Of a stretch of 64,000 bases of DNA, positions 13,131-36,756 are shown in pieces. The number at the start of each line of letters is the position of its first letter. Position 1 is the first letter of the stretch. The position numbers and the translations under genes were made by a program. Origin of the DNA: an uncultured Eubacteriales bacterium (GTDB lineage: Bacteria; Bacillota_I; Bacilli_A; RFN20; UBA1709); NCBI GenBank assembly GCA_964367815.1, contig CAYIYR010000004.1, positions 3,236 through 67,235 of the forward strand. Direction: 5' to 3'. The notes under the pieces were generated by a model. The model saw only the letters and a list, made by a program, of their open reading frames with translations, was not told the DNA's origin and did no database searches.

Positions 13131-13647
13131 GACTTTCTTCTTTCTTTACAATATGTTCTTTAGGCTTCTCATCCTTTTCCAGAAAAATAAAGCTGATCAT
13201 AAGGACAATCGCCCCACAAGTTACTAGCATATCTGCCACATTGAAAACTGGGAAATAACTATTGAAGATTTTGAAAAAATTAAAATCAATAAAATCAATG
13301 ACCTTACCAAATAGGGCCCGATCAATTAAGTTTCCAAAGGCACCAGTAAAGACCATGCTTAAACCAACCTTAGTCAAAAGATGATTCTTACCTTTGAAGT
13401 AATAGACTCCAATAAGAATGCAGGCCAATAAGGAAATACCCGTTAACAGCCAACGCTGTCCGGCCATTGTTCCCCAAGCTGCTCCCTCATTATAAGTCAG
13501 TTGAAAATAGAACCAGTCCTTGATAATTGTAATCACTTTACCACCGGATAATTGGTTTTTAGCAATTACTTTGGTAACTTGATCAGCAATCACTCCGACC
13601 GGAAATATAATCAACAAGAATAAATTTTTCTTTAGGAATTCGCGCAT
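13120..13647 (-). CDS. lspA: Lipoprotein signal peptidase II
   Basis: 175 aa, 4 TM, NEGAAWG and NVADM motifs. Confidence 0.85.
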   Translation of the reverse strand: MREFLKKNLFLLIIFPVGVIADQVTKVIAKNQLSGGKVITIIKDWFYFQLTYNEGAAWGTMAGQRWLLTGISLLACILIGVYYFKGKNHLLTKVGLSMVFTGAFGNLIDRALFGKVIDFIDFNFFKIFNSYFPVFNVADMLVTCGAIVLMISFIFLEKDEKPKEHIVKKEESHEE

Positions 13648-16403
13648 TTCTCTTTTTCCTCATAGCGATGATAGACCGCTGCGCATCTCTCGCAGAGACC
13701 TTCTTCATTTACTTTCTCGAAGTGGTTCCAGCAACGGACACATTTCTGTCCTTGGTGGGCTTCTACTTTAATTTTAACAAAATCGTAGATATTTGCATCT
13801 AAATTTGTAACTTCTTCAACAGAAGAGACAATAAAGAAACGTTCTTTCTCAACTTTTGATAATTGATGATAGATTTTCTTGACCTCTTCATCCATGATTT
13901 CTAAACTGACTTTCGCTTCTTGAGCGGAGCCAATCAAACCATCATTACGTTTTTCTTCTAAGGCTTTTAAAACTTGGGAACGGAGTTTGAGTAAACGCTG
14001 GTATTCGCCGCTTAACTTCGCATCCACAGGTTGATGTTTCGCCATTTCTAGTAATTGGACAGTTGCCTTATCATTATTCATCAAACCATACATTTCTTCC
14101 ATTGTAAATGGAAGCATTGGTGCCAACAAGCGAACCAAAGTATCTAAAATAGTATAGATAACACTTTGAACTTGTCTTCTTCTCAATGAATCATAGGCAT
14201 CACAATAAAGAATGTCCTTGGTAATATCGAGATAGAATGAACTTAAATCAATAGCCATATAATTCAAAATCTCGGTTGAAACGCTGTTGAAATCATAGTT
14301 ATCGTAAGCATCTAATACCTTATTTGTTACTTCTTGTAAACGATTCAAAACATAAGTATCGATGATATCAACCGTAGCAGGTTTGTCCTTAGCATTGTCA
14401 TAAGTACCATAATTGCCATCGCTTAGGTTACCATGTAAGAAGCGGAGCGTGTTTCTAATTTTCCGATAAGATTCGGCGACTTGTTTCAAAATATCATCAG
14501 AAATACGCATATCAGACTGATAATCAATACTGGCAGTCCATAGTCTTAAGATATCGGCGCCATAAACGGAGCAGACTTTATTAGGATCGATAACATTGCC
14601 TAAAGACTTAGACATCTTATTACCCTTGTTATCTAAGGTAAAGCCATGGGAGACAACAGTCTTAAATGGTGATTGACCATTAAAGGCTGTCCCAATCGTA
14701 ATGGAGGAGTTAAACCAGCCACGATATTGATCGCTGCCCTCTAAATAGAGGTCAACAGGATATGGTAAACCTTTTTCTTTAATTACGGCCGTATGCGAAG
14801 AACCAGAATCAAACCAGACATCCATTATGTCTGTCTCTTTCCGATATTTGTTATTTGGTGAATGAGAATTGGTATAACCTTGGGGTAATAGTTCTTGAGC
14901 GGTTCTTTCAAACCAAACGTTTGAGCCATACTCCTTGAACAATTCTACGTAATGGTCAAAAACTTTCTTATCAATAATTGGTGTTTCATCTTCACAATAG
15001 ATGATTGGTAGGGGGACACCCCAAGCTCTCTGACGAGAGATACACCAGTCATAACGATCTCTTATCATATTAGATAGTCGAACATCGCCCCAAGAAGGAT
15101 ACCATTTAACTTTCTTAATCTCACTGAGAATTTTCTCTTTGATTGGATCAATGGAAACAAACCATTGGGCCGTAACTCTAAAGATAATTGGCTTATTTGT
15201 CCGCCAATCATGGGGATAAGAGTGAGTAATTGGTGTTTCTTTTAAGAGCGCACCACATTCAGTTAGCATCTCTAATACTTTAGTATTAGCTTTCCCATAA
15301 AATAGTCCTTCTAACTCAGGACCAGCTTCTTTGGTCATATAGCCCTTATCATCAACTGGACAGAGAATATCAAGATTATATAAACGACCAACATTAAAGT
15401 CATCTTCACCATGGCCAGGAGCGGTATGAACACAACCAGTACCAGCATCTTCGGTAACGTGATCGCCTAAAATAATTGGTGAATAACGATTATATAGTGG
15501 ATGTTTAGTTGTGATGCCCTCTAGTTCTTTACCTTTAAAGGTCTTTCTGAGTTTCATAGATCCTAAGGATAATTCTTTGCCTAATTTCTCTGCTAAACAG
15601 GTTAGAAAGATAAAGACGCCCTTTTCTGTTTCATAGACACCATATTCCAACTTGGCATTTAAACAGATTGCTAAGTTCGCCGGAATTGTCCATGGAGTGG
15701 TTGTCCAAATGATAAAAGACTCATCACCTGTTAATACATTCTTGGTATCAACTACTTTAAAGGCCACATAGATAGAAGATGAAGTAACATCATAGTACTC
15801 AATCTCAGCTTCCGCTAAACAAGATTCACTCGATGGTGACCAATAGACAGGTTTCTTCCCTTTATAGGCTAAACCATCCAGCGCCATCTTGCCAAAAATC
15901 TCTATCTGTTTGGCTTCATACTCTTTATATAAAGTAAGATACGGTTTCTCATAATCACCCATGCTGCCTAGACGAATAAATTCCGCCTTCTGACGAGCCA
16001 CTTGTTGCAAGGCATAATCGCGACACATATCGCGGTATTGAGGCATCGGGATTTCTTTCCGATTGATACCTTTCTTTTGAAGAACCGACTCAATTGGTAA
16101 GCCATGAGTATCCCAACCAGGAGTATATGGTGCTAAAAAGCCTGACATATTCTTATATCTAATGATAAAATCCTTTAAAATCTTATTTAAAGCATGGCCA
16201 ATATGGATATCTCCATTGGCATATGGTGGACCATCATGAAGCATGAAATAAGGTTTACCAGCATTGTTCTTAATAATTAAATTATAAAGATCCATGTCCT
16301 GCCACTTCTTCAATTGAACTGGCTCTTTGACTGCTAGATTACCCCGCATTTCAAACTTGGTTTTCGGCATTGTTAATGAATTTTTGATTTCCATTTTAAT
16401 CAT
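13632..16403 (-). CDS. ileS: Isoleucine--tRNA ligase
   Basis: 923 aa with HIGH (PPYANGDIHIGH) and KMSKS motifs and C-terminal zinc-finger cysteines. Confidence 0.95.
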   Translation of the reverse strand: MIKMEIKNSLTMPKTKFEMRGNLAVKEPVQLKKWQDMDLYNLIIKNNAGKPYFMLHDGPPYANGDIHIGHALNKILKDFIIRYKNMSGFLAPYTPGWDTHGLPIESVLQKKGINRKEIPMPQYRDMCRDYALQQVARQKAEFIRLGSMGDYEKPYLTLYKEYEAKQIEIFGKMALDGLAYKGKKPVYWSPSSESCLAEAEIEYYDVTSSSIYVAFKVVDTKNVLTGDESFIIWTTTPWTIPANLAICLNAKLEYGVYETEKGVFIFLTCLAEKLGKELSLGSMKLRKTFKGKELEGITTKHPLYNRYSPIILGDHVTEDAGTGCVHTAPGHGEDDFNVGRLYNLDILCPVDDKGYMTKEAGPELEGLFYGKANTKVLEMLTECGALLKETPITHSYPHDWRTNKPIIFRVTAQWFVSIDPIKEKILSEIKKVKWYPSWGDVRLSNMIRDRYDWCISRQRAWGVPLPIIYCEDETPIIDKKVFDHYVELFKEYGSNVWFERTAQELLPQGYTNSHSPNNKYRKETDIMDVWFDSGSSHTAVIKEKGLPYPVDLYLEGSDQYRGWFNSSITIGTAFNGQSPFKTVVSHGFTLDNKGNKMSKSLGNVIDPNKVCSVYGADILRLWTASIDYQSDMRISDDILKQVAESYRKIRNTLRFLHGNLSDGNYGTYDNAKDKPATVDIIDTYVLNRLQEVTNKVLDAYDNYDFNSVSTEILNYMAIDLSSFYLDITKDILYCDAYDSLRRRQVQSVIYTILDTLVRLLAPMLPFTMEEMYGLMNNDKATVQLLEMAKHQPVDAKLSGEYQRLLKLRSQVLKALEEKRNDGLIGSAQEAKVSLEIMDEEVKKIYHQLSKVEKERFFIVSSVEEVTNLDANIYDFVKIKVEAHQGQKCVRCWNHFEKVNEEGLCERCAAVYHRYEEKEKCANS

Positions 16404-16411
16404 CCTTTCTA

Positions 16412-16665
16412 AAATAAAAAACGTTCCTATATAATAGGAACGAATTATCGCGGTACCATCCTAGTTCATAGATAAATCTATGCTCTTAATTGCCGTAACG
16501 TGGCTAACGAACTCTTCTACTCATTTCAAAGAATCTCTCCGAAGGGATAATTACTGATAATTCCTCTAGTGTTTCACCAACCCACTAGTCTCTAAAAAGT
16601 CTTTCTCAATAATCTTGTCTTCTTCAACGATTTACAAGACTGATTTTCCCATATTTCATAGTTAT
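16412..16665 (-). promoter_or_regulatory. T-box riboswitch leader of ileS (Ile, AUC specifier candidate), including a promoter and a terminator/antiterminator
   Basis: On the minus strand, the T-box sequence AACTAGGATGGTACCGCG is followed by terminator hairpin CGTTCCTAT-TATA-TAGGAACG plus a U6 run ending just before the ileS RBS. Stem-I region contains GGAATTATCAG with AUC-A as candidate specifier. Upstream is TTGACA-17nt-GAAAAT. Confidence 0.8.
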
Positions 16666-26189: not shown

Positions 26190-27275
26190 TTATTCAGCTT
26201 TGCTTTTTTCAGCTAACCAAGAACCAATTTTTGGGGAGACTTCTTTTTGGCTCTTTGAACTAACATACATACCGATGTGGCCGACTGGGAAAGAAACGAA
26301 TTCTTTATCAGTGCTGCTAATAACATCGAGAATTGGCTTACTGCTTGATAATGGTACCAAGTGATCATACTCAGCACAAACAGCAAAGACTGGGCAGGTA
26401 ATGTTCTTTAGATTGACTTTATGTCCGCCTAAGACTAATTCGCCCTTCACCAATTTGTTATCTTTGTAAAGATCATTGATGAATTGTCTAATGGTTTCGC
26501 CTTCTTGAGCTGGTGAATCAAAGACCCATTTCTCCATTCTTAAGAAGTTTGTTAAGAACTCTGGGTTATCAATTTGCTTGTTGTTTGCTAAGGAAACATA
26601 CTTGTCAATTGTTAGGGAGAATGGTTTTAAGAGCAAGTAGGAAATGTTCATTAAATCGCCAGGAATAACGCCATAGGCATTAACTAAGGCATCGGCATCC
26701 ATGTGTTTGCTCCAAGCAAATAAGAGAGCATCATTAGGACTAAAATCAATTGGAGTAACCATGGTTACTAAAGCATTGACTTTCTCTTGGTGTAAAGCAG
26801 TATAGATTGTTGAGAAGTTGCCACCTTGGCAGACGCCAAGAAGGTTAATCTTGTCAAAACCAGTCTTTTCAATGATGAAGTTAACGCATTCATCCATATA
26901 CCAGTTAATATGATCATCCATACTCATATATAAATCTTCTGCAGTTGGATAACCCCAGTCGATGATATAGCAATCTAATCCTTGATCCAAGAATGATTTA
27001 ATAACTGAACGATCTGGTTGAATATCCATCATGTATTGCTTATTTACTAAAGCATAAGTAATCATTAATGGTCTCTTAATTCTTTTAGCAACTTTCGCGA
27101 TTGGTTTGTAATGATAAAGTTTCATCTTACCAATACCGAAGACAACCTCTTTGGCTAATAAATCGGATTTTACTTCATTGCGACTAATACTCATGAGGTT
27201 TTTTGTTCCTTTGAGAATGTTTTCTTGGAAATCAATTCCCTCTTGAATCGTCTTTTTGATATCAAATAATTCCAT
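26190..27275 (-). CDS. phaC: Poly(3-hydroxyalkanoate) synthase catalytic subunit PhaC, class III/IV type
   Basis: 361 aa alpha/beta-hydrolase fold. Lipase box carries Cys (GVCQGG) with downstream Asp (EYDHLVP) and His (FPVGHIG) triad candidates. Size matches class III/IV PhaC. Confidence 0.7.
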   Translation of the reverse strand: MELFDIKKTIQEGIDFQENILKGTKNLMSISRNEVKSDLLAKEVVFGIGKMKLYHYKPIAKVAKRIKRPLMITYALVNKQYMMDIQPDRSVIKSFLDQGLDCYIIDWGYPTAEDLYMSMDDHINWYMDECVNFIIEKTGFDKINLLGVCQGGNFSTIYTALHQEKVNALVTMVTPIDFSPNDALLFAWSKHMDADALVNAYGVIPGDLMNISYLLLKPFSLTIDKYVSLANNKQIDNPEFLTNFLRMEKWVFDSPAQEGETIRQFINDLYKDNKLVKGELVLGGHKVNLKNITCPVFAVCAEYDHLVPLSSSKPILDVISSTDKEFVSFPVGHIGMYVSSKSQKEVSPKIGSWLAEKSKAE

Positions 27276-27277
27276 TA

Positions 27278-28510
27278 TTACTTACCTCCGTTTTCTTTTT
27301 TGTTGCAAGCAGCAACAATTTTCTTCAAAGCAGCAATTTCTTCTTTCAATGTTTTAATTTCTTTGGTGTTATAGTAACTTTCTTTGCGTAGATCATAGAC
27401 TGTTTTGTATAGATTACGCATTTCAGAGTTCTTTGGAACTGGAGCCCAGGCTAAGAGTTTCTCAAGAATTAAATCGGATTCAGTTTTAAATTCGGCAGCT
27501 CTTTTGCCATATTCGCCAAATAATTGGGAGAATTCATCGGTACCGAAAACTTTGATAAAAGATTCCTCATTGATCTTAATGAATAGATCATAGAATTCCT
27601 TCATGGTCTTTGGTGTAGCACCATTCTTTGTAATCTCTTGGAATTTTTGGACAACTTCAATTAAGTTTTGTTTGCTAACTTCTTCAATTAAAGCAACTAA
27701 TTGAACTTGAGCAAGATATAACTTGTTGAATTTATCAAAACCAGCTAAGAATTGTTCGGTATCTTCTTTGGTTGCACCAAAGCCGGAAACATTAAAGAAT
27801 TTACCATAGGTTTTCTCGTAGCAATCAAATGATCTCTTATAAATATCAATATAAGCATTCTTGTCGCCTTTAAAAGCTGCTTGAACATCTTTTGCAACAT
27901 CTTCAGCAGAATCAGACCAAGGAGCAACAAAGCTATTTGATAGTTCTTGATAATCCTTGATTAGTTGTTTGGAATTGTTGAATAGTTCTTTGCCACCTTC
28001 TGGTAAGAATGGGGTTAAGATATCTTCAGTTAATTTCTCATAGACACTGCTCTTCTCTTCGATAAACTTTTTGACTTCACTAGCACTAGCGAAAGCATCT
28101 TTACCAATTAAGCTTTGATATAATTTGAATAAATCATTATAGACTAATGTACTATTCATAATTTTATTAAAGACATCAACTTGGGTTTCATTTGTATTGA
28201 ACATGTTATAAGTCCAAGGTTGTCCTTTAAAGAATGGATTTGAGCCAAATTGCTTCTGCCAATCTCCGAACATATTTTGATAACTTTTAACCATATTCGT
28301 ATACATATCATTTAGTAATGACGAATCACCTAAGCCAACTGTGGTTCCGGTGAAAGGGGCGACTTTCGGCATCACGTCCATCCAGCTTTTAATTAGCTCT
28401 TGTTGGCGCTTTAGACTTTCTTGAAAAAAATCACTCATGTATAATTCCTCCTCGTGAAAATATGAATTACCATTCACATTTGAGCCTAGTATAAAGGAAA
28501 ATATTTCCAT
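27278..28510 (-). CDS. Putative PHA synthase subunit PhaE-like protein
   Basis: 410 aa. Translationally coupled immediately upstream of phaC; assigned by position and size only. Confidence 0.35.
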   Translation of the reverse strand: MEIFSFILGSNVNGNSYFHEEELYMSDFFQESLKRQQELIKSWMDVMPKVAPFTGTTVGLGDSSLLNDMYTNMVKSYQNMFGDWQKQFGSNPFFKGQPWTYNMFNTNETQVDVFNKIMNSTLVYNDLFKLYQSLIGKDAFASASEVKKFIEEKSSVYEKLTEDILTPFLPEGGKELFNNSKQLIKDYQELSNSFVAPWSDSAEDVAKDVQAAFKGDKNAYIDIYKRSFDCYEKTYGKFFNVSGFGATKEDTEQFLAGFDKFNKLYLAQVQLVALIEEVSKQNLIEVVQKFQEITKNGATPKTMKEFYDLFIKINEESFIKVFGTDEFSQLFGEYGKRAAEFKTESDLILEKLLAWAPVPKNSEMRNLYKTVYDLRKESYYNTKEIKTLKEEIAALKKIVAACNKKENGGK

Positions 28511-28847
28511 TGTAAAGCACTTTGCACAATTTTTTTCACTTTTTTTAACGATTTTTTTAACATTTGTACAAATTTTTTAATTAGTTTCTTTATGAGACCC
28601 TGTTCAGAAAAATATTTTGAAACTGAATTTTAACAAAAAACTCCGCTTTTATCAGCGATTACTGGTTCACATTTCTTTTTTTACTGTTTTGTTATCAAAT
28701 TTCTATTAACTTATTAACCTTTTATTATTAATTTACGCGTATATATGTGCGAGATAAGTTGAAACCGCTTTCAACCAAATAGGACTTTTTATTGACTTCT
28801 TGCTAGTATATAATGTGGGCATTCAAGTAGGAAGGAGAACTCAATTC

Positions 28848-28922
28848 ATGAAAAACAAATCATTAGTCTGCGCTTCTAATTTCTACTTTTATTACTTTTA
28901 TTATCGCAAGCAGCATTGTTAA
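28848..28922 (+). CDS. Candidate leader peptide MKNKSLVCASNFYFYYFYYRKQHC, rich in Tyr/Phe codons
   Basis: Strong RBS AGGAAGGAG 8 nt upstream of ATG. 24 codons with eight consecutive aromatic codons (TTC TAC TTT TAT TAC TTT TAT TAT). Followed by alternative hairpins and a terminator. Confidence 0.45.
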   Translation: MKNKSLVCASNFYFYYFYYRKQHC

Positions 28923-29016
28923 AACCTGCTAGTTTTGTTTTGTAAAAGTAAAACTAATGTGGTGTTATTACGATGCTGATTTAAGAGTAATAACATTGCA
29001 GTCTATCATGAATTCC

Positions 29017-29049
29017 AGTGTTATTACCGAAAGTGATAACACTTTTTTG
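29017..29049 (+). terminator. Attenuator terminator in the ABC-transporter leader
   Basis: AGTGTTATTAC-CGAAA-GTGATAACACT gives an 11-bp stem (one G.U) plus a T6 run. Its 5' arm is identical to an upstream 10-mer that can pair with an intervening complementary segment. Confidence 0.6.
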
Positions 29050-29079
29050 TTTCATTATTTAAAGAAATGTGAGGGATCT

Positions 29080-30054
29080 ATGATGAAATTATTTAGAAAA
29101 CTATTAATGGTAGCACTGATGGCTACCGCAATTACTACTCTTGCAGGCTGTGGAAACAATAAAATTAAGATTGGTATTCTGCAACCCGTTGAACACTCAG
29201 CTCTGTCAAAAGCTCGTGAGGGCTTCATTGCTGGTTTAGCAGAAAATGGATATGGTGAGGATAAAGTAGAAATCAACTATCAGAATGCTTTAGGTGAAAA
29301 TGCTTCCTTAGTTTCGATGTCTTCTTCCCTAGTTAGAAAGAGTGATTTAGTCCTAGGCATTGCGACTGGAGCAGCTCAGCAACTAGTTGCCTCAGGGGCT
29401 GAAATTAATTTTACGAAACCAATTCTTTTTACAGCGGTCACCGATCCTGTTGATGCCGAATTGGTTACTTCACTTAGTAATCCGGGCAGCAATGTCACAG
29501 GGACTAGTGATATGAATCCTGTTGAAGCTCAGATTGCTTTGATTAAGGAAGTCTTACCAAGCGCTAAGAAAGTTGGCATTCTCTATACCGCCAGTGAACA
29601 AAACTCGGAAGTCCAAGCTCAGATGGCAAAAACAGCTGCTGAAGCTGCTGGATTAACCGTCGTCATTAAAACAATTTCACAAGCTTCTGAAATCGCTGCG
29701 GCAACCACAAATCTGGCCAAGCAAGTTGATTCCATTTATATTCCAACTGATAATTTATTGGCTAGTAATATGACCCTTGTCGGCCCGGCTGCCAATAATG
29801 AAAAGACACTCTTGGTCTGTGGTGAAAGCTCCATGGTAACAAATGGTGGTCATATTACCCTATCAATCGATTACTTTGAACTCGGCAAAATTACAGGAAA
29901 AATGGCTGCCGAAATATTAAATGGTAAAGCGACCTCTACTATGAACGTCCCCGTTTATCCATTGGAGTCCTGTACAATAGATATTAACGAAGATGGTTTA
30001 AAAGCAATTAATGTCAGTTTGCCACAAAGTATTAAGGATAGAATGGATAAGTAG
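29080..30054 (+). CDS. ABC transporter substrate-binding lipoprotein, ABC_sub_bind (COG2984) family
   Basis: Signal peptide with lipobox LAGC. Start at MMKLFRK after RBS GAGGGA; the ORF-track start at 28957 would translate leader RNA. Confidence 0.8.
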   Translation: MMKLFRKLLMVALMATAITTLAGCGNNKIKIGILQPVEHSALSKAREGFIAGLAENGYGEDKVEINYQNALGENASLVSMSSSLVRKSDLVLGIATGAAQQLVASGAEINFTKPILFTAVTDPVDAELVTSLSNPGSNVTGTSDMNPVEAQIALIKEVLPSAKKVGILYTASEQNSEVQAQMAKTAAEAAGLTVVIKTISQASEIAAATTNLAKQVDSIYIPTDNLLASNMTLVGPAANNEKTLLVCGESSMVTNGGHITLSIDYFELGKITGKMAAEILNGKATSTMNVPVYPLESCTIDINEDGLKAINVSLPQSIKDRMDK

Positions 30055-30059
30055 CTAAT

Positions 30060-30998
30060 ATGAGTTTCTTAATAATTATTCTAAACATATTGGAAACAGG
30101 TCTTCCCTATGCTCTATTAGCCTTAGGAATCTTCCTGACTTACCGTCTTCTCGATATTGCTGATCTTTCCGCTGAAGGTTCATTCACTCTTGGTGGTTGT
30201 CTAGGATTAACTCTAACAGCGATTGGTGTAAACGCCTATTTATCGGTCTTCATCGCCATAATTGCTGGCTTTCTAGCCGGTTGTTGTACTGGTATTCTTC
30301 ATACCAAGCTGAAAATTCCTTCTCTTTTATCCGGTATTATCACCATGACCGGTTTAATTGCTATTAACTTAGTCATCATGGGACTTGCTAATGCTTCATC
30401 GCCTTCTAGCAATGCGGTTACCATTGGATCTAGTGGGCGGGGACCAAAATCAATCTTTGATTATGTATCTCTTTTCAAACTACCATTGATGAACCAAGTC
30501 TTAGTCATGGTTGTTATCACAATATTAGTTCTCTTAGTCGTTTATTGGTTCTTTGGAACTGAGATTGGTCAAGCCATTCGGGCAACTGGTATGAATCGGA
30601 ACATGGCCAAAGCTCAAGGAATTAACACTTCAAGAATGCTTATTTTTGGTCTAGGAATTAGCAATGCGATCATTGCCCTAGGTGGAGCCCTATGGGCTCA
30701 AGGTTCAAGAAGTTTTGAAATTGGCAATGGTACAGGAGCCTTAGTTATTGGACTGGCCGCCATAATTCTAGGCGAGACAATATTTGGAAAGAGATCATTT
30801 AAAAATTGGATTATTTCCGTTGTTCTTGGCTCTATTGTCTATTTCACTATCATCCAAGTTGCAATCATTCTCAACTTCCCTCACTATTTAATGAAGTTGC
30901 TATATGCCGTACTAATTACAATTGCACTTTCAATACCTCTTATTCAAAAAGCATTTGCCAAGAAGAAAAAAGAAAAAGTGGTGATCACCAATGCTTAA
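30060..30998 (+). CDS. ABC transporter permease (COG4120-type)
   Basis: 312 aa polytopic membrane protein encoded between the SBP and ATPase genes. Confidence 0.8.
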   Translation: MSFLIIILNILETGLPYALLALGIFLTYRLLDIADLSAEGSFTLGGCLGLTLTAIGVNAYLSVFIAIIAGFLAGCCTGILHTKLKIPSLLSGIITMTGLIAINLVIMGLANASSPSSNAVTIGSSGRGPKSIFDYVSLFKLPLMNQVLVMVVITILVLLVVYWFFGTEIGQAIRATGMNRNMAKAQGINTSRMLIFGLGISNAIIALGGALWAQGSRSFEIGNGTGALVIGLAAIILGETIFGKRSFKNWIISVVLGSIVYFTIIQVAIILNFPHYLMKLLYAVLITIALSIPLIQKAFAKKKKEKVVITNA

Positions 30999-31770
30999 AA
31001 TTACAAACATTTCTAAAGAGTTTAATCTTACTGGAAACATTGAAGACCGACGAGTTGCCCTTGCTGACGTTTCATTGACAATTAAAGATGGTGAATTTGT
31101 TACAATTATTGGCGGTAATGGAAGTGGTAAAACCACTCTGATGAATCTAATTGCTGGCGGTCTGCTTCAAGATAGTGGCACGATAGAAATAAACAATCGT
31201 GATGTAAGTCGCTTGAACGAGCATCAACGAGCAAAATTTTTAGGACGAGTCTTCCAAGATCCTAATTTAGGCACCGCCAAAGATATGTCGATTCTCGAAA
31301 ACATGGAGATAGCGATGCGTCGGACTCGAAAAAGTACTCTAAAATGGGGGTTTAATAAAGACAACAAAACTTATTTTGTTGAACGACTATCAACCCTAAA
31401 CTTAGGGTTAGAAAACCGTTTAACTCAGAAAGTTGGTTTGTTATCCGGTGGTCAAAGACAAGCCTTGACCTTGATAATGGCAACCCTAAGTCAACCAGAT
31501 TTATTGCTTCTTGATGAGCATACAGCGGCCTTAGATCCTAAAACCTCAAAGATAGTTTTAGAAATTACCAATAAAATTGTCACTAGCAATAAACTAACAA
31601 CCATCATGATTACCCACAATATGCAAGATGCCATCACCTATGGCAATCGGCTAATAATGCTGCATAATGGGAGAATCATCTATGATGTAAAAGGCGAAGA
31701 AAAGAAAAAATTGACAACGCAAGAATTAGTTGCCAAATTCGAAAGCACCGCAGATACCTCAATGCTATAA
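30991..31770 (+). CDS. ABC transporter ATP-binding protein (COG1101-type)
   Basis: 259 aa. Walker A GGNGSGKTT, signature LSGGQRQ, Walker B LLLDE. Confidence 0.85.
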   Translation: MLKITNISKEFNLTGNIEDRRVALADVSLTIKDGEFVTIIGGNGSGKTTLMNLIAGGLLQDSGTIEINNRDVSRLNEHQRAKFLGRVFQDPNLGTAKDMSILENMEIAMRRTRKSTLKWGFNKDNKTYFVERLSTLNLGLENRLTQKVGLLSGGQRQALTLIMATLSQPDLLLLDEHTAALDPKTSKIVLEITNKIVTSNKLTTIMITHNMQDAITYGNRLIMLHNGRIIYDVKGEEKKKLTTQELVAKFESTADTSML

Positions 31771-31843: not shown

Positions 31844-32212
31844 TTATTTCTTTTTATTTATATGCTTTTTCAAGCACGCAAATGTTTCATCGCTTAAATC
31901 ATGTTCAATCTTGCAAGCATCTTCTTCTGCAACTTTGGCATCAACTCCCAAAGTTACGAAAATGTCTGTTAGCAAATGATGACGTTCAGCAACCTTGCTA
32001 GCAATTTCCCAACCAGTATTTGTCAGAACAAGATGTTCATTTTCATCAATTGTTAAGAATCCATCTGCAACCATTTGCTTAAGTTTTACCGAAACAGTGG
32101 GCTTAGAAAAACCCATTGATTTGCATAAATCGATGGCATGAACGCCCTCTTTCTGCTCCGTCAAAAAATATATAGCCTCAAGGTATTTCTCATTCGTTTC
32201 ATCAATTTTCAT
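31844..32212 (-). CDS. DtxR/MntR-family metal-dependent transcriptional regulator
   Basis: About 122 aa from MKIDETNEKYLEAIY, with a winged-helix plus metal-binding helix pattern. RBS AGAGGGA before this ATG; the ORF-track TTG start at 32269 is probably too long. Confidence 0.8.
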   Translation of the reverse strand: MKIDETNEKYLEAIYFLTEQKEGVHAIDLCKSMGFSKPTVSVKLKQMVADGFLTIDENEHLVLTNTGWEIASKVAERHHLLTDIFVTLGVDAKVAEEDACKIEHDLSDETFACLKKHINKKK

Positions 32213-32213
32213 T

Positions 32214-32372
32214 TCATTTCCCTCTTTTCTGACAGGCTTGACACTGCTGGCAACTATGACAGCAGCCAATACAGGCGATATGTCCTTTCTTGCGTGCTCT
32301 AATAATATATCTAATAGCTAATACCGCCCAAAATGCGACAATACTAATAATCATTATATCAATAAATTTCAT
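32214..32372 (-). CDS. FeoB-associated Cys-rich membrane protein (small, not in ORF track)
   Basis: 52 aa MKFIDIMIISIVAFWAVLAIRYIIRARKKGHIACIGCCHSCQQCQACQKRGK. One TM helix plus a C-terminal Cys cluster. ATG immediately follows the feoB stop. Confidence 0.65.
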   Translation of the reverse strand: MKFIDIMIISIVAFWAVLAIRYIIRARKKGHIACIGCCHSCQQCQACQKRGK

Positions 32373-34376
32373 CTAAATCACCTTCGCAATACTATAAACA
32401 ATAAAAGCCACAACCCAAGCTAATACGCATTGGTAGAGAACCACTAGCATTGTCTTTCCACGGCCATACTCTTTTTTCATTGTCGAAATCGTTGCAACAC
32501 AAGGAGTATAAAGCAACACTATCGTTAAAAATGATAGCATGGAAGGAATTGTTCCAAGCAGGATAAGCAGCCCGCCCTCACTAGAGAGCATCTCCATCGT
32601 ACTAATAACCGCTTCTTTGGCTGTAAATCCAGCAATTAAGGCCGAAACAATTTTGCCGTCCCCTAAGCCTACTGGCTTAAATATTGGCGCCAATAGATTA
32701 CCTAAATGTTCGAGTAAGCTAACATTATTGATCACATCGGTAGTAATAAAAATGAGTTGGGTATTGTAAGCTTGCAAGAACCAAACAATCAAAGTTGCTA
32801 AGAAGATAACGGTAAATGCTCTTGTCAAGAAATCTTTTGACTTCTCCCATATAAGCAGCCATGTACTCTTTAGTGATGGCAAGCGATAATTAGGTAGTTC
32901 CATAACAAATGGTATGGCTTTTCCTTTCATAATGATTTTGCCCATCACCAAAGCCGTTACAATGCCTAGCAAAATACCGACTAAATACAAACAAATAATG
33001 ATTAGTGACTGTTGCCACCAACTGAACACGCCACTATTTACAATGGCAAAATATACAATTGCTTTAGCTGAGCAACTAATAAAAGGAATTAAACCAATGG
33101 TTATCTTCCGGTCCCTTTCGGAAGCCAAAGTCCTCGTGCTCATTATCGCCGGAACTGAACAGCCAAAACCAATTATAATAGGAACAAAGCTCCGACCCGA
33201 TAGTCCAATTTTCCGCAGTGGCTTATCCATAATAAAAGCAATACGAGCCATATAGCCAGAATCTTCTAACAACGATAGAAATAAAAACATAAAAATAATA
33301 TAAGGTAATAAAGATATAACTGCCCCTAAACCGCCAAATAATCCCTTATCAAGAAAATCAACAACTGCGGGATTAGTTCCAAATTTTGTTAAACCATTAA
33401 TTACTATTTCATCAAGACTATCTATGCCCCAGCTAATCAAATTGCCAAGATATTTGCCAAAAACTTGAAAGGTAAGCAAATAGATAGCGACAATTATCAA
33501 TAAAAATAATGGTATGGCGGCTCCTCTATTAGTCAAAATCTTATCTATTGTTTCACTCCGCTTGCGCTCCTTACTTTCTTGGCACTTGATTACACAGGCA
33601 TTTGTAACTTTATCAATAAAGGTATAAGTCATTTCAGCAACCGCAGCATCGCGATCTAAATCACAATCAGTTTCCATTTCAATAACACTATGTTCAATTA
33701 ATTCTTCCTCGTTGGTATCTAACTCCAAACGTTTAGCAAAATCAGTCCCAGTCATGATCAGATTCATTGCGCAGAAACGGGCGGATACATCGATTTTCTC
33801 CGCATGATCTTCAATTAATAGAATCGTTGAGTGCAAGCATCTATGAACTGGATTATCTTTCTCACAAATATCAGTAACCTTTGGCTTTTGATGATTCTGG
33901 GCGGTTTTAATCAGGCAAGCCATTAATTCATCAACACCTTCATTTTTGGCGGCCGAGATAGGAATAACTGGTACTCCTAACATGTCTGACATCTTTTGGA
34001 CATCAATTGTACCACCATTGTTACGAACTTCATCCATCATATTCAAAGCCACTACCATTGGAATGTCTAATGACATTAATTGGGTGGTTAAGTACAAATT
34101 CCGCTCTATAGTGGTCGCATCAACGATATTGATAATACCATCGGGATGTTGATTCAAAATACAATCCCTTGTTACAATTTCTTCTTCGGTATAAGGACGC
34201 AACGAATAGATACCCGGTAAGTCAATGATTTGGCAGTCTTTTCGACCCATATAGGTTCCTACTTTGGCATCAACAGTCACTCCCGGAAAGTTTCCAACAT
34301 GCTGATTAGAGCCAGTAATCTGATTAAATAAAGTAGTCTTGCCACAGTTTTGATTACCAACTAGTGCAAATCTCAT
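32373..34376 (-). CDS. feoB: Ferrous iron transport protein B
   Basis: 667 aa. N-terminal G-domain (GNQNCGKTTLFN) plus polytopic membrane domain. Confidence 0.9.
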   Translation of the reverse strand: MRFALVGNQNCGKTTLFNQITGSNQHVGNFPGVTVDAKVGTYMGRKDCQIIDLPGIYSLRPYTEEEIVTRDCILNQHPDGIINIVDATTIERNLYLTTQLMSLDIPMVVALNMMDEVRNNGGTIDVQKMSDMLGVPVIPISAAKNEGVDELMACLIKTAQNHQKPKVTDICEKDNPVHRCLHSTILLIEDHAEKIDVSARFCAMNLIMTGTDFAKRLELDTNEEELIEHSVIEMETDCDLDRDAAVAEMTYTFIDKVTNACVIKCQESKERKRSETIDKILTNRGAAIPLFLLIIVAIYLLTFQVFGKYLGNLISWGIDSLDEIVINGLTKFGTNPAVVDFLDKGLFGGLGAVISLLPYIIFMFLFLSLLEDSGYMARIAFIMDKPLRKIGLSGRSFVPIIIGFGCSVPAIMSTRTLASERDRKITIGLIPFISCSAKAIVYFAIVNSGVFSWWQQSLIIICLYLVGILLGIVTALVMGKIIMKGKAIPFVMELPNYRLPSLKSTWLLIWEKSKDFLTRAFTVIFLATLIVWFLQAYNTQLIFITTDVINNVSLLEHLGNLLAPIFKPVGLGDGKIVSALIAGFTAKEAVISTMEMLSSEGGLLILLGTIPSMLSFLTIVLLYTPCVATISTMKKEYGRGKTMLVVLYQCVLAWVVAFIVYSIAKVI

Positions 34377-35545: not shown

Positions 35546-35778
35546 ATTATCTATAATTCATTATAAACTACCTTGATAAACTATACTAGAGCAAAAGAAA
35601 TATACCCATGTCCAATAATTGCATTATAGAACTCGCTATGGTAAAATTATTGTACACCAAATGAACATATGGTGAATCCGAGCCATTATGTCCTAAAAAT
35701 ATTGATAAATATTCACGGCTATTGGCCGGGGTATAATTGGAAACGGTTATGCCTTCCATTGTGAAAAGGAGAGAAAGA

Positions 35779-36756
35779 ATGAAGAAAAAGTTGTTCAAGT
35801 TTTTTGCTGCCTTTGTAGCAGCATGCAGCATCTGCACTATCGCAGTAGGCTGTAAAAATGATGGAATCGAACTGAAGATTCTAAAAGAAGAAGATGACAG
35901 CATGATCAACACCTACGCGATGATAGCAGTTGATCCAAATGCACCATTTATCTCATCGACTGATGGTTCTGCCCTAGCAGCTGGATCTGTATCTATCAAT
36001 ACAGCAGGAGCTGATGCATTCATCGAATGGATGAGTAGTAGCGCAGGTCGTAATTTGATTAAGGACTATGGAAAAGCCGATTACGATGAGTATTTATTCT
36101 ATTTATTAGACACCGCTGAAACTTATAGTGGAACTATCGCTGCGGCAACCTCTGCAACCAAGACAATTCGTTTATCGACAACAACGTCTGTCAATGATAG
36201 TGGGCTGCTTAGCGCAATTGTACCAACATTTGAAAAAGATTATGGCTATGAAGTCAAGATATCTTCCGCCGGAACAGGCAAAGCAATTGCGGCAGCCACT
36301 TATGGAAATGCCGATCTAATCCTAGTCCACTCAAAGTCACAAGAAGAAACATTTATTAATGCGCACTATGCAAGAAAAGTGGCCTCTTTTAAACAAGAAA
36401 GACTAGCATTCATGTATAACTATTTTGTTTTAGTCGGGCCGAAAAAAGACCCTGCCAAAGTAGCTGATGCTGCCAACGTTAAGGAAGCCTTTAAAAAGAT
36501 TTCTGATGGCAGCTACACCTTTATTTCACGTGGTGATAAGAGCGGTACACATACAAAAGAAATTTCCTTATGGGATTCAACGCTAAAGATTACAACTGAA
36601 GCTACTAGTGTCAAAAATTATCCTTGGTATGTTTCAGCAAATGCTGGTATGGGTGTCTGCTTAACTCAAGCGAATGAAAAAGGTGCTTATATCTTATCCG
36701 ATAAGGCAACATTCTTAACCTTTAAAGCCAACCGTGGAATTATGCTTCAAGCATAG
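35779..36756 (+). CDS. tupA: Tungstate/molybdate ABC transporter substrate-binding protein (TupA/WtpA-like)
   Basis: Lipoprotein signal (AACSICTIAVGCKNDG) and anion-binding PBP fold with SRGDKSGTHTKE motif. Context is Moco and tungsten-enzyme genes. Confidence 0.65.
   Translation: MKKKLFKFFAAFVAACSICTIAVGCKNDGIELKILKEEDDSMINTYAMIAVDPNAPFISSTDGSALAAGSVSINTAGADAFIEWMSSSAGRNLIKDYGKADYDEYLFYLLDTAETYSGTIAAATSATKTIRLSTTTSVNDSGLLSAIVPTFEKDYGYEVKISSAGTGKAIAAATYGNADLILVHSKSQEETFINAHYARKVASFKQERLAFMYNYFVLVGPKKDPAKVADAANVKEAFKKISDGSYTFISRGDKSGTHTKEISLWDSTLKITTEATSVKNYPWYVSANAGMGVCLTQANEKGAYILSDKATFLTFKANRGIMLQA

What the first reader, a model, noticed from the sequence alone, without database searches (positions are those of the whole stretch)
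28750..29085. Tyr/Phe-codon-rich leader ORF followed by terminator/antiterminator switch upstream of a COG2984-type ABC transporter
About 230 nt upstream of the transporter start sits a 24-codon ORF (28848-28922) with a near-perfect RBS (AGGAAGGAG). It encodes MKNKSLVCASNFYFYYFYYRKQHC, with eight consecutive aromatic codons (5 Tyr, 3 Phe). Downstream are two small hairpins (28908-28931 and 28931-28955), then an identical 10-mer GTGTTATTAC twice (28962-28971 and 29018-27). A complementary GTAATAACA at 28987-95 can pair with either copy. The second copy also forms the 5' arm of a strong intrinsic terminator (11-bp stem, CGAAA loop, T6; 29017-29049). That is an anti-antiterminator/antiterminator/terminator arrangement. 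The Tyr codons TAT TAC also contain the TTATTAC core that the complementary segment could pair with. This resembles classical ribosome-mediated attenuation (trpL/pheL-like), which is uncommon in Firmicutes, where T-boxes dominate. It would imply the downstream SBP/permease/ATPase imports tyrosine or aromatic amino acids. Relatives of this transporter family (trpXYZ) have been predicted to carry tryptophan. The ORF track's start for the SBP (28957) would translate the attenuator itself.
Basis: partly seen in the sequence, partly recalled or inferred. Interest (0 to 1): 0.8.

Follow-up and report, generated by a model that had tools for sequence, protein, structure and literature searches.

The report
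Tyrosine-sensing leader-peptide transcription attenuator
A tiny upstream gene packed with tyrosine and phenylalanine codons, followed by competing RNA hairpins and a terminator, most likely turns on an amino-acid importer only when those amino acids run short; the same design recurs in dozens of related bacteria, and I found no description of it.

Summary
These features are all present: the 24-codon ORF (28848-28922, MKNKSLVCASNFYFYYFYYRKQHC) with a strong RBS; two GTGTTATTAC copies; the complementary GTAATAACA; and an 11-bp terminator with a T run.

- Relatives of the downstream binding protein carry Tyr/Phe-run short ORFs in the same place: 8 of 77 upstream regions against 0 of 2205 control windows.
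- A metagenome scan with the RNA motif alone gave 24 hits that had both a terminator and a Tyr-run leader. All 22 with readable downstream sequence precede a homologue of the same binding protein.
- In Clostridia, nine T-boxes occupy the same position, with Tyr (5) or Phe (4) specifiers and none for Trp.
- Covariation supports the terminator, the anti-antiterminator, and a further helix joining the last leader codons and stop codon to the first repeat. That helix couples ribosome position to the switch.

No Rfam family matches the window. A different Lactobacillales version is filed in Rfam only as "Enterococcus sRNA 2410".

Verdict: a classical ribosome-mediated attenuator with a new specificity (tyrosine), a new target (an ABC importer) and an extended helix relay. 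It is a new variant of a known kind. No experimental evidence exists.

The parts
28809..28814 (+). Probable -10 box TATAAT of the leader promoter. There is no canonical -35 at 16-18 nt; the TTGACT at 28792-28797 lies only 11 nt upstream.
   Evidence: Read from the sequence. The promoter scan found no canonical site here. Relatives L187 and L081 have TATAAT at the same distance from the leader RBS, and L187 has TTGACT-17-TATAAT.
28829..28837 (+). Shine-Dalgarno sequence AGGAAGGAG of the leader ORF, 10 nt before the ATG.
   Evidence: All related leaders have a comparable RBS.
28848..28922 (+). Leader ORF, 24 codons: MKNKSLVCASNFYFYYFYYRKQHC*
   Evidence: Homologous leader in L081: MKKTINKANQHNFYFYYFYFSYSI.
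28881..28904 (+). Regulatory codon run UUC UAC UUU UAU UAC UUU UAU UAU (5 Tyr, 3 Phe); the proposed ribosome stall site.
   Evidence: Across 24 related leaders the run holds 133 Tyr codons (UAU 85, UAC 48), 44 Phe and 0 Trp.
28891..28902 (+). 5' arm of helix P1a: aromatic codons that can pair with 28941-28952 when no ribosome covers them.
   Evidence: I9: 9 of 9 complementary; -8.1 kcal/mol. The same GUAAAAGUAAAAC segment occurs in L002.
28911..28930 (+). Small hairpin AGCAG/CUGCU enclosing the stop codon, followed by a U-rich tract (28933-28941). It stands in the place of the CCAAGA...UCUUGG+U-run hairpin seen in most relatives; possibly an RNA polymerase pause or an early terminator.
28941..28952 (+). 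3' arm of P1a. The same bases can instead form the local hairpin 28930-28941 / 28945-28956.
   Evidence: I6, I9.
28911..28926 (+). 5' arm of helix H1: the last leader codons, the stop codon and 4 nt beyond. It is covered by a ribosome sitting at the stop codon and is free when the ribosome stalls in the aromatic run.
   Evidence: duplex -16.1 kcal/mol with 28961-28978; cognate arms -9.94 against non-cognate -5.32 kcal/mol, 0 of 5000 permutations as low..
28961..28978 (+). 3' arm of H1: the first repeat copy plus its tail CGAUGCUG.
28958..28971 (+). First repeat (#1, GTGTTATTAC with 5' flank); 5' arm of the anti-antiterminator.
   Evidence: Covariation of the flanking pairs.
28987..29000 (+). 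Shared segment GUAAUAACAUUGCA. It pairs either with #1 (anti-antiterminator) or with #2 (antiterminator).
   Evidence: I4, I10; hairpins -13.1 and -13.6 kcal/mol.
29016..29027 (+). Second repeat (#2): 3' arm of the antiterminator and 5' arm of the terminator.
29033..29048 (+). Terminator 3' arm GUGAUAACACU and the T6 run.
   Evidence: 96% of cells paired, 4 pairs changed on both sides, 0 of 500 shuffles as high.
29080..30054 (+). Substrate-binding lipoprotein (PF04392). It resembles TrpX but scores below the TrpX cut-off. True start is 29080, not 28957.
   Evidence: 252 bits; NF041285 278.6 bits against cut-off 390.
30060..30998 (+). ABC permease (PF02653).
30991..31770 (+). ABC ATPase (PF00005).

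Best explanation
This is a ribosome-mediated transcription attenuator that senses charged tRNA-Tyr, and to a lesser degree tRNA-Phe. It controls a three-gene ABC importer that most likely takes up tyrosine and/or phenylalanine.

Transcription starts a few bases upstream of the leader RBS (inferred). A ribosome translates the 24-codon leader while RNA polymerase moves on. Downstream lies a chain of mutually exclusive helices:
- H1: leader end plus stop codon, 28911-28926, pairs with repeat #1 plus tail, 28961-28978.
- Anti-antiterminator: #1, 28958-28971, pairs with 28987-29000.
- Antiterminator: 28987-28998 pairs with #2, 29016-29027.
- Terminator: 29017-29027 pairs with 29033-29043, followed by U6.

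When Tyr and Phe are plentiful, the ribosome runs to the stop codon. Its footprint covers the 5' arm of H1, so #1 is free. #1 captures the shared segment as soon as it is made, #2 stays free, the terminator forms and transcription stops at about 29048.

When charged tRNA-Tyr or tRNA-Phe is scarce, the ribosome stalls within 28881-28904. The 5' arm of H1 stays exposed and H1 locks up #1. The shared segment then pairs with #2 instead, the terminator cannot form, and polymerase reads into the transporter genes.

Shown here: the sequence elements and their complementarity; conservation of the Tyr/Phe leader; its exclusive association with this transporter; covariation of H1, the anti-antiterminator and the terminator; and the footprint geometry.

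Inferred: translation of the leader, stalling, the kinetic order of folding, and the substrate of the transporter.
For: (1) Anatomy. All elements are present and non-random. The helices have similar stability: H1 -16.1 kcal/mol as a duplex; the other three as hairpins, anti-antiterminator -13.1, antiterminator -13.6 and terminator -11.8.

(2) The leader is conserved.
- Short ORFs with an RBS and at least 6 of 8 aromatic residues lie upstream of 8 of 77 homologous binding-protein genes. The count is 0 of 77 on the reverse complement and 0 of 2128 other windows of the same loci.
- With looser criteria, at least 14 loci have one.
- The closest relatives (54-58% identical binding protein) have near-identical architecture.

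(3) An independent route agrees. An exact scan of metagenome contigs with the RNA motif alone gave 102 stretches. Of these, 24 have a downstream T run and all 24 have a Tyr-run leader. All 22 with enough downstream sequence are followed by a homologue of the binding protein.

(4) Coding signature. Both Tyr codons are used (UAU 85, UAC 48) and both Phe codons (UUU 38, UUC 6). The rest of the peptide varies. The stop codon usually lies 15-18 nt after the run and inside H1.

(5) Covariation.
- H1: cognate -9.94 against non-cognate -5.32 kcal/mol, 0 of 5000 permutations.
- Anti-antiterminator: 38 cells with changes on both sides, score 0.269 against 0.094 shuffled, 0 of 500.
- Terminator: 96% paired, 0 of 500.
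- Changes in the repeat cores are almost all wobble-compatible with both partners.

(6) Geometry. I folded the transcript up to the shared segment with a 30-nt ribosome mask. The probability that #1 is paired to the leader end is 0.74 in the window with the ribosome on aromatic codons 1-7, and 0.00 with it at the stop codon. Family means are 0.74 (best stall position) and 0.07.

(7) Logic and substrate. Nine T-boxes stand directly upstream of homologous binding proteins in Clostridia. Their specifiers are UAC (Tyr, 5) or UUC (Phe, 4), never UGG.

(8) A prematurely terminated product exists for the Lactobacillales version. RF02863 matches the leader of L012 at 135.8 bits. The original 195-nt RNA was seen on northern blots as two transcripts (PMC5593968).
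Against: - There is no experimental evidence for this element.
- Equilibrium folding does not reproduce the switch in the window. Over the full leader the terminator is favoured, or mixed with the antiterminator, whether or not a stalled ribosome is imposed. In the transcript cut before the terminator's 3' arm the antiterminator is favoured in all states. My crude greedy co-transcriptional folding was uninformative. The model therefore rests on a first-come-first-served order of folding that I could not simulate properly.
- The antiterminator has no covariation support. Its 8-bp core is invariant and its flanks do not covary. Its reality is inferred from the identity of #1 and #2.
- The core conservation among the metagenome-derived sequences was imposed by the search pattern. 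Only the ten protein-derived members (window, L081, L083, L001, L002, L005, L017, L021, L187, L189) are unbiased for it.
- In the window, H1 is also predicted to form with no ribosome at all (0.73). An untranslated transcript would then read through, whereas in trp it terminates. About half the relatives behave the other way.
- The window lacks the CCAAGA/UCUUGG hairpin of most relatives.
- No canonical promoter was found.
- Tyr and Phe specificity cannot be separated.
Confidence: 0.8

Rival explanations
1. The leader peptide acts as a ligand-sensing arrest peptide, like TnaC. The nascent Tyr-rich chain, often ending in F-P-R, would stall the ribosome in response to free amino acid or another small molecule rather than to lack of charged tRNA.
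For: Many relatives share a ...YYYYYFPR(R)C... ending. Conservation beyond the codon run is what one expects of an arrest peptide.
Against: - The P-R codons (CCAAGA) are the 5' arm of a conserved hairpin with UCUUGG, which explains their conservation at the RNA level.
- The window and L081 lack them (RKQHC, SYSI) yet keep the rest of the switch.
- Induction by abundant amino acid makes little sense for an importer.
- It would also be the opposite of the Tyr/Phe T-boxes at orthologous positions.
Confidence: 0.05
2. The ORF is not translated. The UAUUAC repeats would be RNA elements only, and the switch would be set by an RNA-binding protein, a small ligand, or direct pairing of tRNA-Tyr (anticodon GUA) with UAC-containing segments.
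For: - The core UAUUAC occurs in the leader run, in #1 and in #2, and the partner segments contain GUA.
- The cores are unusually invariant.
- The aromatic-codon region can pair with the shared segment or with the terminator's 3' arm (-6.8 and -7.4 kcal/mol).
Against: - Every member has a strong RBS and an in-frame start codon.
- Synonymous UAU/UAC and UUU/UUC variation keeps the amino acid, not the RNA sequence.
- The stop codon is placed consistently inside H1.
- The Lactobacillales version has different RNA helices but again a Tyr/Phe-run ORF.
- No T-box or riboswitch model matches.
- Invariant cores are expected when one segment must pair with two or three partners.
Confidence: 0.07
3. A chance short ORF in AT-rich intergenic DNA lies next to an ordinary hairpin-rich 5' UTR, or next to the terminator of a neighbouring gene. 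There would be no amino-acid-specific regulation.
For: TTT/TAT/TAC-type codons are favoured in 36% G+C DNA.
Against: - Control windows of the same loci give 0 of 2205 comparable ORFs.
- The upstream gene is divergent (27278-28510 on the minus strand), so the terminator does not serve it.
- The architecture is conserved with covariation across more than 25 distinct sequences.
Confidence: 0.02

Closest known systems
Classical leader-peptide attenuators of Gammaproteobacteria (trpL, pheL/pheA, pheM/pheST, hisL)
   Same: A short translated ORF with a run of codons for the regulating amino acid. Alternative helices end in an intrinsic terminator. Ribosome stalling favours the antiterminator. (Established knowledge; summarised in PMC9413887 and PMC11802643.)
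   Different: - The regulatory codons are mainly Tyr. I found no Tyr-specific leader in the papers searched; a 2005 survey lists tyrosine as regulated by T-boxes, not attenuators (PMC1262725).
- The target is an importer, not a biosynthetic operon or an aminoacyl-tRNA synthetase.
- The chain is longer than the trp 1:2 / 2:3 / 3:4 scheme: H1, anti-antiterminator, antiterminator, terminator, plus an upstream hairpin in most relatives.
- The stop codon sits about 65 nt before the shared segment, so a relay helix (H1) is needed.
- No Rfam leader family matches.
Rfam RF02863 'Enterococcus sRNA 2410' (Sinel et al. 2017, PMC5593968)
   Same: It lies directly upstream of homologous binding-protein genes in Enterococcus, Vagococcus, Carnobacterium and Streptococcus. 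The model consensus begins with UUAGCUACUUUAGAUAG (FSYFR-stop in the leader's frame), the end of a Tyr/Phe leader ORF. Those codons pair with a downstream GGCUAAAG, and the element ends in a terminator.
   Different: The helices and sequence are different. The window gives no RF02863 hit even at E <= 10. It is described in the literature only as an sRNA of unknown function, not as an attenuator.
Tyr- and Phe-specific T-box leaders upstream of homologous ABC binding proteins in Clostridia/Oscillospiraceae
   Same: Same position, same regulated genes, same signal (uncharged against charged tRNA-Tyr or tRNA-Phe) and same output (terminator readthrough).
   Different: T-boxes read the tRNA directly by RNA-RNA contacts and need no translation. 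The window has no T-box here, although the genome does use one for ileS.
aroR leader of Corynebacterium glutamicum (Neshat et al. 2014, as summarised in PMC11802643)
   Same: A leader peptide containing Tyr and Phe codons (Phe-Tyr-Phe) that attenuates an aromatic-pathway operon.
   Different: It is actinobacterial, controls aroF (biosynthesis), has only three regulatory codons, and is reported to respond to Phe but not to Tyr.
uORFC-13-1 motif of Acholeplasma upstream of aroF (Brewer et al. 2021, PMC8632094), and His-leader attenuators of Firmicutes (PMC2965389, PMC9413887)
   Same: These are predicted leader-peptide attenuators in Mollicutes and Firmicutes. They show that the mechanism exists in these lineages.
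   Different: They have other amino-acid specificities (Phe, His), other target genes and other RNA structures.
TrpXYZ tryptophan ABC importer (S. suis, PMC9382623; NCBIfam NF041285)
   Same: Same transporter family and gene order (PF04392 binding protein, PF02653 permease, ATPase), with leader-RNA control by premature termination.
   Different: The window's binding protein scores 278.6 bits against the TrpX cut-off of 390. The regulatory signals of it and its relatives are Tyr/Phe, not Trp.

Membership tests
Ribosome-mediated (leader-peptide) transcription attenuator | Short ORF with its own Shine-Dalgarno sequence and start codon in the 5' leader. | tested here: met
   AGGAAGGAG at 28829-28837, ATG at 28848, 24 codons. 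Present in all related leaders.
Ribosome-mediated (leader-peptide) transcription attenuator | Cluster of codons for the regulating amino acid, conserved as amino acid rather than as nucleotide sequence. | tested here: met
   Eight consecutive Tyr/Phe codons. The family uses UAU 85, UAC 48, UUU 38, UUC 6. Enrichment is 8 of 77 against 0 of 2205 controls.
Ribosome-mediated (leader-peptide) transcription attenuator | Intrinsic terminator between the leader ORF and the first structural gene. | tested here: met
   (11 bp plus T6). Covariation.
Ribosome-mediated (leader-peptide) transcription attenuator | Antiterminator helix mutually exclusive with the terminator. | tested here: inconclusive
   A 12-bp complementarity exists, 28987-28998 with 29016-29027, -13.6 kcal/mol. 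But the 8-bp core is invariant and the flanks show no covariation.
Ribosome-mediated (leader-peptide) transcription attenuator | A helix whose formation depends on where the ribosome sits on the leader. | tested here: met
   H1 joins the last codons and stop codon to repeat #1 and covaries: cognate -9.94 against non-cognate -5.32 kcal/mol, 0 of 5000 permutations. With masks it forms at 0.74 under stall and 0.00 at the stop codon.
Ribosome-mediated (leader-peptide) transcription attenuator | Readthrough increases on starvation for the cognate amino acid and requires translation of the leader. | not testable with these tools
   Needs reporter fusions, northern blots or Term-seq.
T-box leader (RF00230) | Stem I with a specifier loop, and the conserved T-box sequence in the antiterminator bulge. 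| tested here: not met
   No RF00230 hit in 28400-29400 even at E <= 10. The same search method finds the ileS T-box at 16433-16636.
Rfam RF02863 sRNA_2410 (Lactobacillales version of the leader) | Match to the covariance model. | tested here: not met
   No hit in the window at E <= 10. Hits are in L012 (135.8 bits) and, below the gathering score, in L047, L054, L051, L006 and L007.
Rfam amino-acid leader families (Trp, Phe, His, Leu, Thr and leu/phe leaders) | Match to any of these covariance models. | tested here: not met
   One search lists only six chance-level matches (E 1.3-7.9) to unrelated families.
TrpXYZ tryptophan importer (NCBIfam NF041285 equivalog) | Whole-protein score above the curated cut-off of 390 bits. 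| tested here: not met
   278.6 bits. It is a paralogous subfamily of PF04392.
TrpXYZ tryptophan importer (NCBIfam NF041285 equivalog) | Trp-specific regulatory signal (UGG T-box or Trp codons). | tested here: not met
   No Trp codon in any of 24 leaders. The nine T-boxes of relatives are Tyr or Phe.

The most novel reading that the evidence does not exclude
This is one member of an undescribed and widespread class of tyrosine-specific leader-peptide attenuators in Bacilli, Acholeplasma-like organisms and related Bacillota. It would be the first leader peptide whose regulatory codons are chiefly Tyr.

The class works through a relay of four to five mutually exclusive helices. The Tyr codon pair UAU-UAC, the anti-antiterminator arm and the terminator arm all share the core UAUUAC, which suggests that the switch arose by duplication of the codon run.

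Together with the Tyr/Phe T-boxes and the Lactobacillales 'sRNA_2410' element, it would redefine a large branch of the TrpX-like ABC transporters as Tyr/Phe importers. The same operon would then be controlled by at least three unrelated RNA mechanisms in different lineages.
Probability: 0.5. Interest if true: 0.7.

Novelty: new variant of a known kind. Interest (0 to 1): 0.6.

Why it matters
- **Specificity.** Leader-peptide attenuation is textbook biology, but I found no tyrosine-specific example in the papers searched. Tyrosine control at the RNA level is attributed to T-boxes.
- **Mechanism swapping.** A conserved Tyr-run attenuator shows that Bacillota and Mollicutes-like bacteria swap T-boxes for translated leaders at the same operon. 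That makes a clean natural experiment on how regulatory mechanisms replace one another.
- **Annotation.** It gives a testable substrate assignment (Tyr/Phe) to a large, poorly annotated branch of the PF04392 / "TrpX-like" transporters, common in gut and rumen Bacilli. It explains a validated Enterococcus faecium "sRNA" as a terminated leader transcript. It also corrects the start of the binding-protein gene.
- **Design.** One 8-nt core is reused in three to four pairing partners. This is a compact example of a multi-state RNA relay that could serve as a design template.

Tried and rejected
- **Rfam.** The region at E <= 10 and the whole window gave no known leader, T-box or riboswitch at the site.
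- **Equilibrium folding of the full leader** with ribosome masks. Some relatives (L081, L083, L155, L153, L136) switch as predicted. In the window and many others the terminator is favoured, or mixed with the antiterminator, in every state. I rejected this as a test because the decision is kinetic.
- **Equilibrium folding of the transcript cut before the terminator's 3' arm**. The antiterminator is favoured in most states. There is only a weak stall-versus-stop difference across the family (0.84 against 0.66, Wilcoxon p = 0.016) and none in the window.
- **Greedy co-transcriptional folding** that locks helices every 6 nt. The result was noisy and dominated by spurious small hairpins. I discarded it.
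- **Antiterminator covariation**. There is none beyond an invariant core.
- **A canonical sigma-70 promoter**. None was found at the expected place.
- **Simple three-helix trp scheme** with the aromatic codons as segment 1 pairing directly with GUAAUAAC. The pairing is possible (-6.8 kcal/mol). It is weaker than H1, and the covarying H1 makes it unnecessary.
- **Literature searches** for a Tyr leader peptide or attenuator of this transporter found none. Panina et al. 2003 and Vitreschak et al. 2008 are not held, so prior prediction there cannot be excluded.
- **L024's 'aromatic ORF'** is a false positive lying inside a T-box.
Full report
**Observation.**
The RBS AGGAAGGAG is at 28829-28837. 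A 24-codon ORF runs from 28848 to 28922 and encodes MKNKSLVCASNFYFYYFYYRKQHC. Eight consecutive aromatic codons (5 Tyr, 3 Phe) lie at 28881-28904.
- GTGTTATTAC occurs at 28962-28971 and 29018-29027. The complementary GTAATAACA is at 28987-28995.
- An intrinsic terminator has an 11-bp stem, a CGAAA loop and T6 at 29017-29048.
- The arrangement is not a chance product. The composite repeat motif occurs once in the window against 0.00 expected. The leader folds with z = -4.24. It is the only RBS-preceded short ORF in 64 kb with at least 6 of 8 aromatic residues.

**Surroundings.**
- Downstream lie a PF04392 substrate-binding lipoprotein, a PF02653 permease and an ABC ATPase.
- The binding protein resembles TrpX but scores 278.6 bits against the curated cut-off of 390.
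- Its true start is 29080. It has its own RBS and a lipobox, and homologues align from residue 1-5. The mechanical ORF start at 28957 is not the real one.
- The upstream gene (phaE-like, 27278-28510) is divergent, so the terminator cannot belong to it.
- No Rfam family matches 28400-29400 even at E <= 10. The same genome uses a T-box for ileS.

**Related loci through the protein.**
- The organism is poorly sampled: the best homologue of the binding protein is 58% identical.
- A scan of one genome per species gave 80 loci with binding proteins 39-50% identical in the best segment.
- Short ORFs with an RBS and at least 6 of 8 aromatic residues occur upstream of 8 of 77 of these genes. The count is 0 of 77 on the reverse complement and 0 of 2128 other windows of the same loci. 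With looser criteria, at least 14 loci have one. Examples are MTKNFNSQFYIYYYYYFPR, MKKIFNSYFYYYFYYPRT and MFANRYYYYYYTC...
- The nearest relatives have the same architecture as the window. L081 (58% identical binding protein) has leader MKKTINKANQHNFYFYYFYFSYSI, then GGTGTTGTTAC, AAGTAATAAC and the terminator GAGTGTTATTAC-TGA-GTGATAACAC-T5. L083, L187 and L189 are similar.
- I call this type Group A. It comprises the window, L081, L083, L001, L002, L005, L017, L021, L187 and L189.

**Related loci through the RNA alone.**
- I scanned metagenome contigs with GTTATTAC-N(10-30)-GTAATAAC-N(8-38)-GTTATTAC, with no protein information. This returned 102 stretches.
- Most are repeats or chance matches without a terminator.
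- The 24 that have a T run just downstream all carry a Tyr-run leader, for example MITVINTVKFYYYYYYFPRRCHV and MTRLVVNRYYYYYYYFPRRCHEKH.
- All 22 with enough sequence are followed by a homologue of the binding protein. The other two are cut by contig ends.
- The motif therefore belongs to this transporter and to a Tyr-run leader.

**Specificity.**
- Across 24 Group A leaders the run contains 133 Tyr codons, 44 Phe codons and no Trp. UAU/UAC and UUU/UUC are both used, as expected for selection on the amino acid.
- In Clostridia and Oscillospiraceae the same position is occupied by T-boxes. Their specifier is UAC (Tyr) in L028, L024, L022, L049 and the second T-box of L014. It is UUC (Phe) in L035, L038, L030 and the first T-box of L014. 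None is UGG.
- This supports induction on tRNA-Tyr or tRNA-Phe deprivation, and a Tyr/Phe substrate rather than Trp.

**Structure and mechanism.**
- In window coordinates the helices are as follows.
  - H1: 28911-26 with 28961-78, -16.1 kcal/mol as a duplex.
  - Anti-antiterminator: 28958-71 with 28987-29000, hairpin -13.1.
  - Antiterminator: 28987-98 with 29016-27, hairpin -13.6.
  - Terminator: hairpin -11.8.
- Each helix excludes its neighbours in the chain.
Its 5' arm is the last leader codons plus the stop codon. Its sequence differs from relative to relative, and the tail after repeat #1 changes to match: AGCAUUG/CGAUGCU in the window, AACUUGUG/CACAAGUU in L083, GGAUAUCA/UGAUAUCC in L021, UUGUUCG/CGAACAA in L155.
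- Cognate arms pair at -9.94 kcal/mol on average, against -5.32 for non-cognate combinations. None of 5000 permutations was as low.
- The anti-antiterminator covaries in its four flanking pairs: 38 cells changed on both sides, score 0.269 against 0.094 shuffled, 0 of 500.
- The terminator covaries too: 96% paired, 0 of 500.
- The antiterminator core is invariant and its flanks do not covary. Support for it is indirect. #1 and #2 keep the same 8-mer in every lineage, and nearly all substitutions are wobble-compatible with both partners (GUUGUUAC in L081, GUAGUAAC in L187 and L189).
- Folding the nascent transcript up to the shared segment with a 30-nt ribosome mask gives the probability that #1 is paired to the leader end. 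In the window this is 0.74 with the ribosome on aromatic codons 1-7, 0.35 on the last, and 0.00 at the stop codon. Family means are 0.74 (best stall position) and 0.07 (stop codon).
- The stop codon usually lies 15-18 nt after the run. That spacing suits a footprint that exposes or covers the 5' arm of H1.
- The model follows. With plentiful Tyr/Phe the ribosome reaches the stop codon, H1 is blocked, #1 takes the shared segment and the terminator forms. With scarce Tyr/Phe the ribosome stalls, H1 forms, the shared segment takes #2 and polymerase reads through.
- Most relatives have an extra hairpin, CCAAGA...UCUUGG followed by a U run, at the end of the leader. This explains the conserved Pro-Arg codons. 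They also have a GGAAAGUAA segment complementary to the last Tyr/Phe codons.
- The window has weaker counterparts: the 28911-28930 hairpin plus a U-rich tract, and 28891-28902 pairing with 28941-28952.
- In about half the family these structures prevent H1 when there is no ribosome. That gives termination by default. In the window they do not.

**Limits.**
- Equilibrium folding of the full leader or of the transcript before the terminator's 3' arm does not reproduce the switch in the window.
- My greedy co-transcriptional scheme was uninformative.
- The kinetic order of folding, translation of the leader, stalling and the transported substrate are all inferred.
- Conservation of the repeat cores among the metagenome-derived sequences was imposed by the search pattern.
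- No canonical promoter was found: TATAAT is at 28809-28814, but TTGACT lies only 11 nt upstream.

**Comparison with what is known.**
- The mechanism class is classical leader-peptide attenuation (trpL, pheL).
- Predicted leader-peptide attenuators exist in Firmicutes for His (PMC2965389; PMC9413887) and in Acholeplasma for Phe upstream of aroF (PMC8632094).
- C. glutamicum aroR has a Phe-Tyr-Phe leader that responds to Phe but not Tyr (PMC11802643).
- A 2005 survey lists tyrosine as regulated by T-boxes, not attenuators (PMC1262725).
- I found no paper describing a Tyr-run leader or an attenuator for this transporter. Two relevant comparative-genomics papers are not held.
- A second architecture, Group B, occurs in Lactobacillales. 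Its leaders end in ...YFSYFR or ...YYFSFFR, and those codons pair with a downstream GGCUAAAG.
- Group B matches Rfam RF02863 'Enterococcus sRNA 2410': 135.8 bits in L012, and 38-54 bits in L047, L054, L051, L006 and L007. The source paper reports it only as a northern-validated 195-nt sRNA seen as two transcripts (PMC5593968). That is what a terminated leader plus readthrough would look like.
- The window does not match RF02863.

**Verdict.** It is a new variant of a known kind. The mechanism is familiar. The amino-acid specificity, the regulated gene class, the relay architecture and the breadth of the family appear undescribed. Interest is moderate to high for RNA-regulation and transporter-annotation specialists.

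Noticed in passing
L012:2783-2986; L047:1804-1994; L054:2758-2911; L051:2694-2878; L006:1778-1940; L007:2757-2963: Rfam RF02863 'Enterococcus sRNA 2410' coincides with the leader region upstream of homologous binding-protein genes in Lactobacillales. Its consensus starts with the last codons (FSYFR-stop) of a Tyr/Phe leader ORF. The published 'sRNA' is probably a terminated attenuator transcript.
   Followed up: partly
L014:2667-2931 and L014:4174-4438: An Oscillospiraceae locus has two T-boxes about 1.5 kb apart, the first with a Phe (UUC) and the second with a Tyr (UAC) specifier. The first precedes the matched binding-protein gene (start about 3003). The gene after the second was not examined. 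If it is a second binding protein, this would suggest separate Phe- and Tyr-specific paralogues.
   Followed up: partly
L047:1730-3963; L006:1680-3966: In two Streptococcus loci, one Tyr/Phe leader (MVPSKTTQTINNRYYFSFFR, MLLMCQNHSANHTYFYGYFR) precedes two tandem binding-protein genes, both about 39-45% identical to the window protein.
   Followed up: partly
Group A relatives, e.g. L111, L088, L102, L113 (sequences); window counterpart 28911-28941: Most Group A leaders end in a conserved hairpin CCAAGA...UCUUGG followed directly by CUUUUU. This looks like a pause site or a first, translation-dependent terminator. It also accounts for the conserved Pro-Arg in the peptides.
   Followed up: partly
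L003, L010, L011, L076: Further Tyr-run leaders occur upstream of homologous binding proteins: MNKLASFNFYFYYYYLM; MRTVSFIDNYYFYFFRKRSVS in Clostridium aminobutyricum; MNNKICIINSNASFYYYYYYYSNNQ; MFANRYYYYYYTC... in Ruminococcus sp. Their downstream helices fit neither Group A nor Group B, so there are more architectures.
   Followed up: no
window 16433-16636 (-) and 13632-16403 (-): A T-box leader (122.8 bits) lies upstream of ileS (TIGR00392, 948 bits). The genome therefore uses both T-boxes and a leader-peptide attenuator.
   Followed up: partly
window 35664-35787 (+): Molybdenum cofactor (Moco) riboswitch, 52.8 bits.
   Followed up: no
window 26190-28510 (-): Class III polyhydroxyalkanoate synthase genes phaC (TIGR01836, 431.7 bits) and a phaE-like gene, divergent from the leader, in a genome of 36% G+C.
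   Followed up: no
window 31844-34376 (-): An MntR/DtxR-family metal-dependent repressor and feoB lie convergent to the end of the transporter operon.
   Followed up: no
L083:2927-2936: The 552-aa 'binding protein' P0002 is called across a run of N in a scaffold, so its length is probably an assembly artefact and not a real fusion.
   Followed up: no
L021 (contig CAZYFI010000019.1): A contig labelled 'uncultured Bacteroidales' carries a typical Group A leader and a Bacilli-like binding protein. The bin assignment looks doubtful.
   Followed up: no
window 28792-28814: A perfect-looking TTGACT lies only 11 nt upstream of TATAAT, whereas relative L187 has TTGACT-17-TATAAT. The window promoter may have lost spacer bases, or it may use a different -35.
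   Followed up: no
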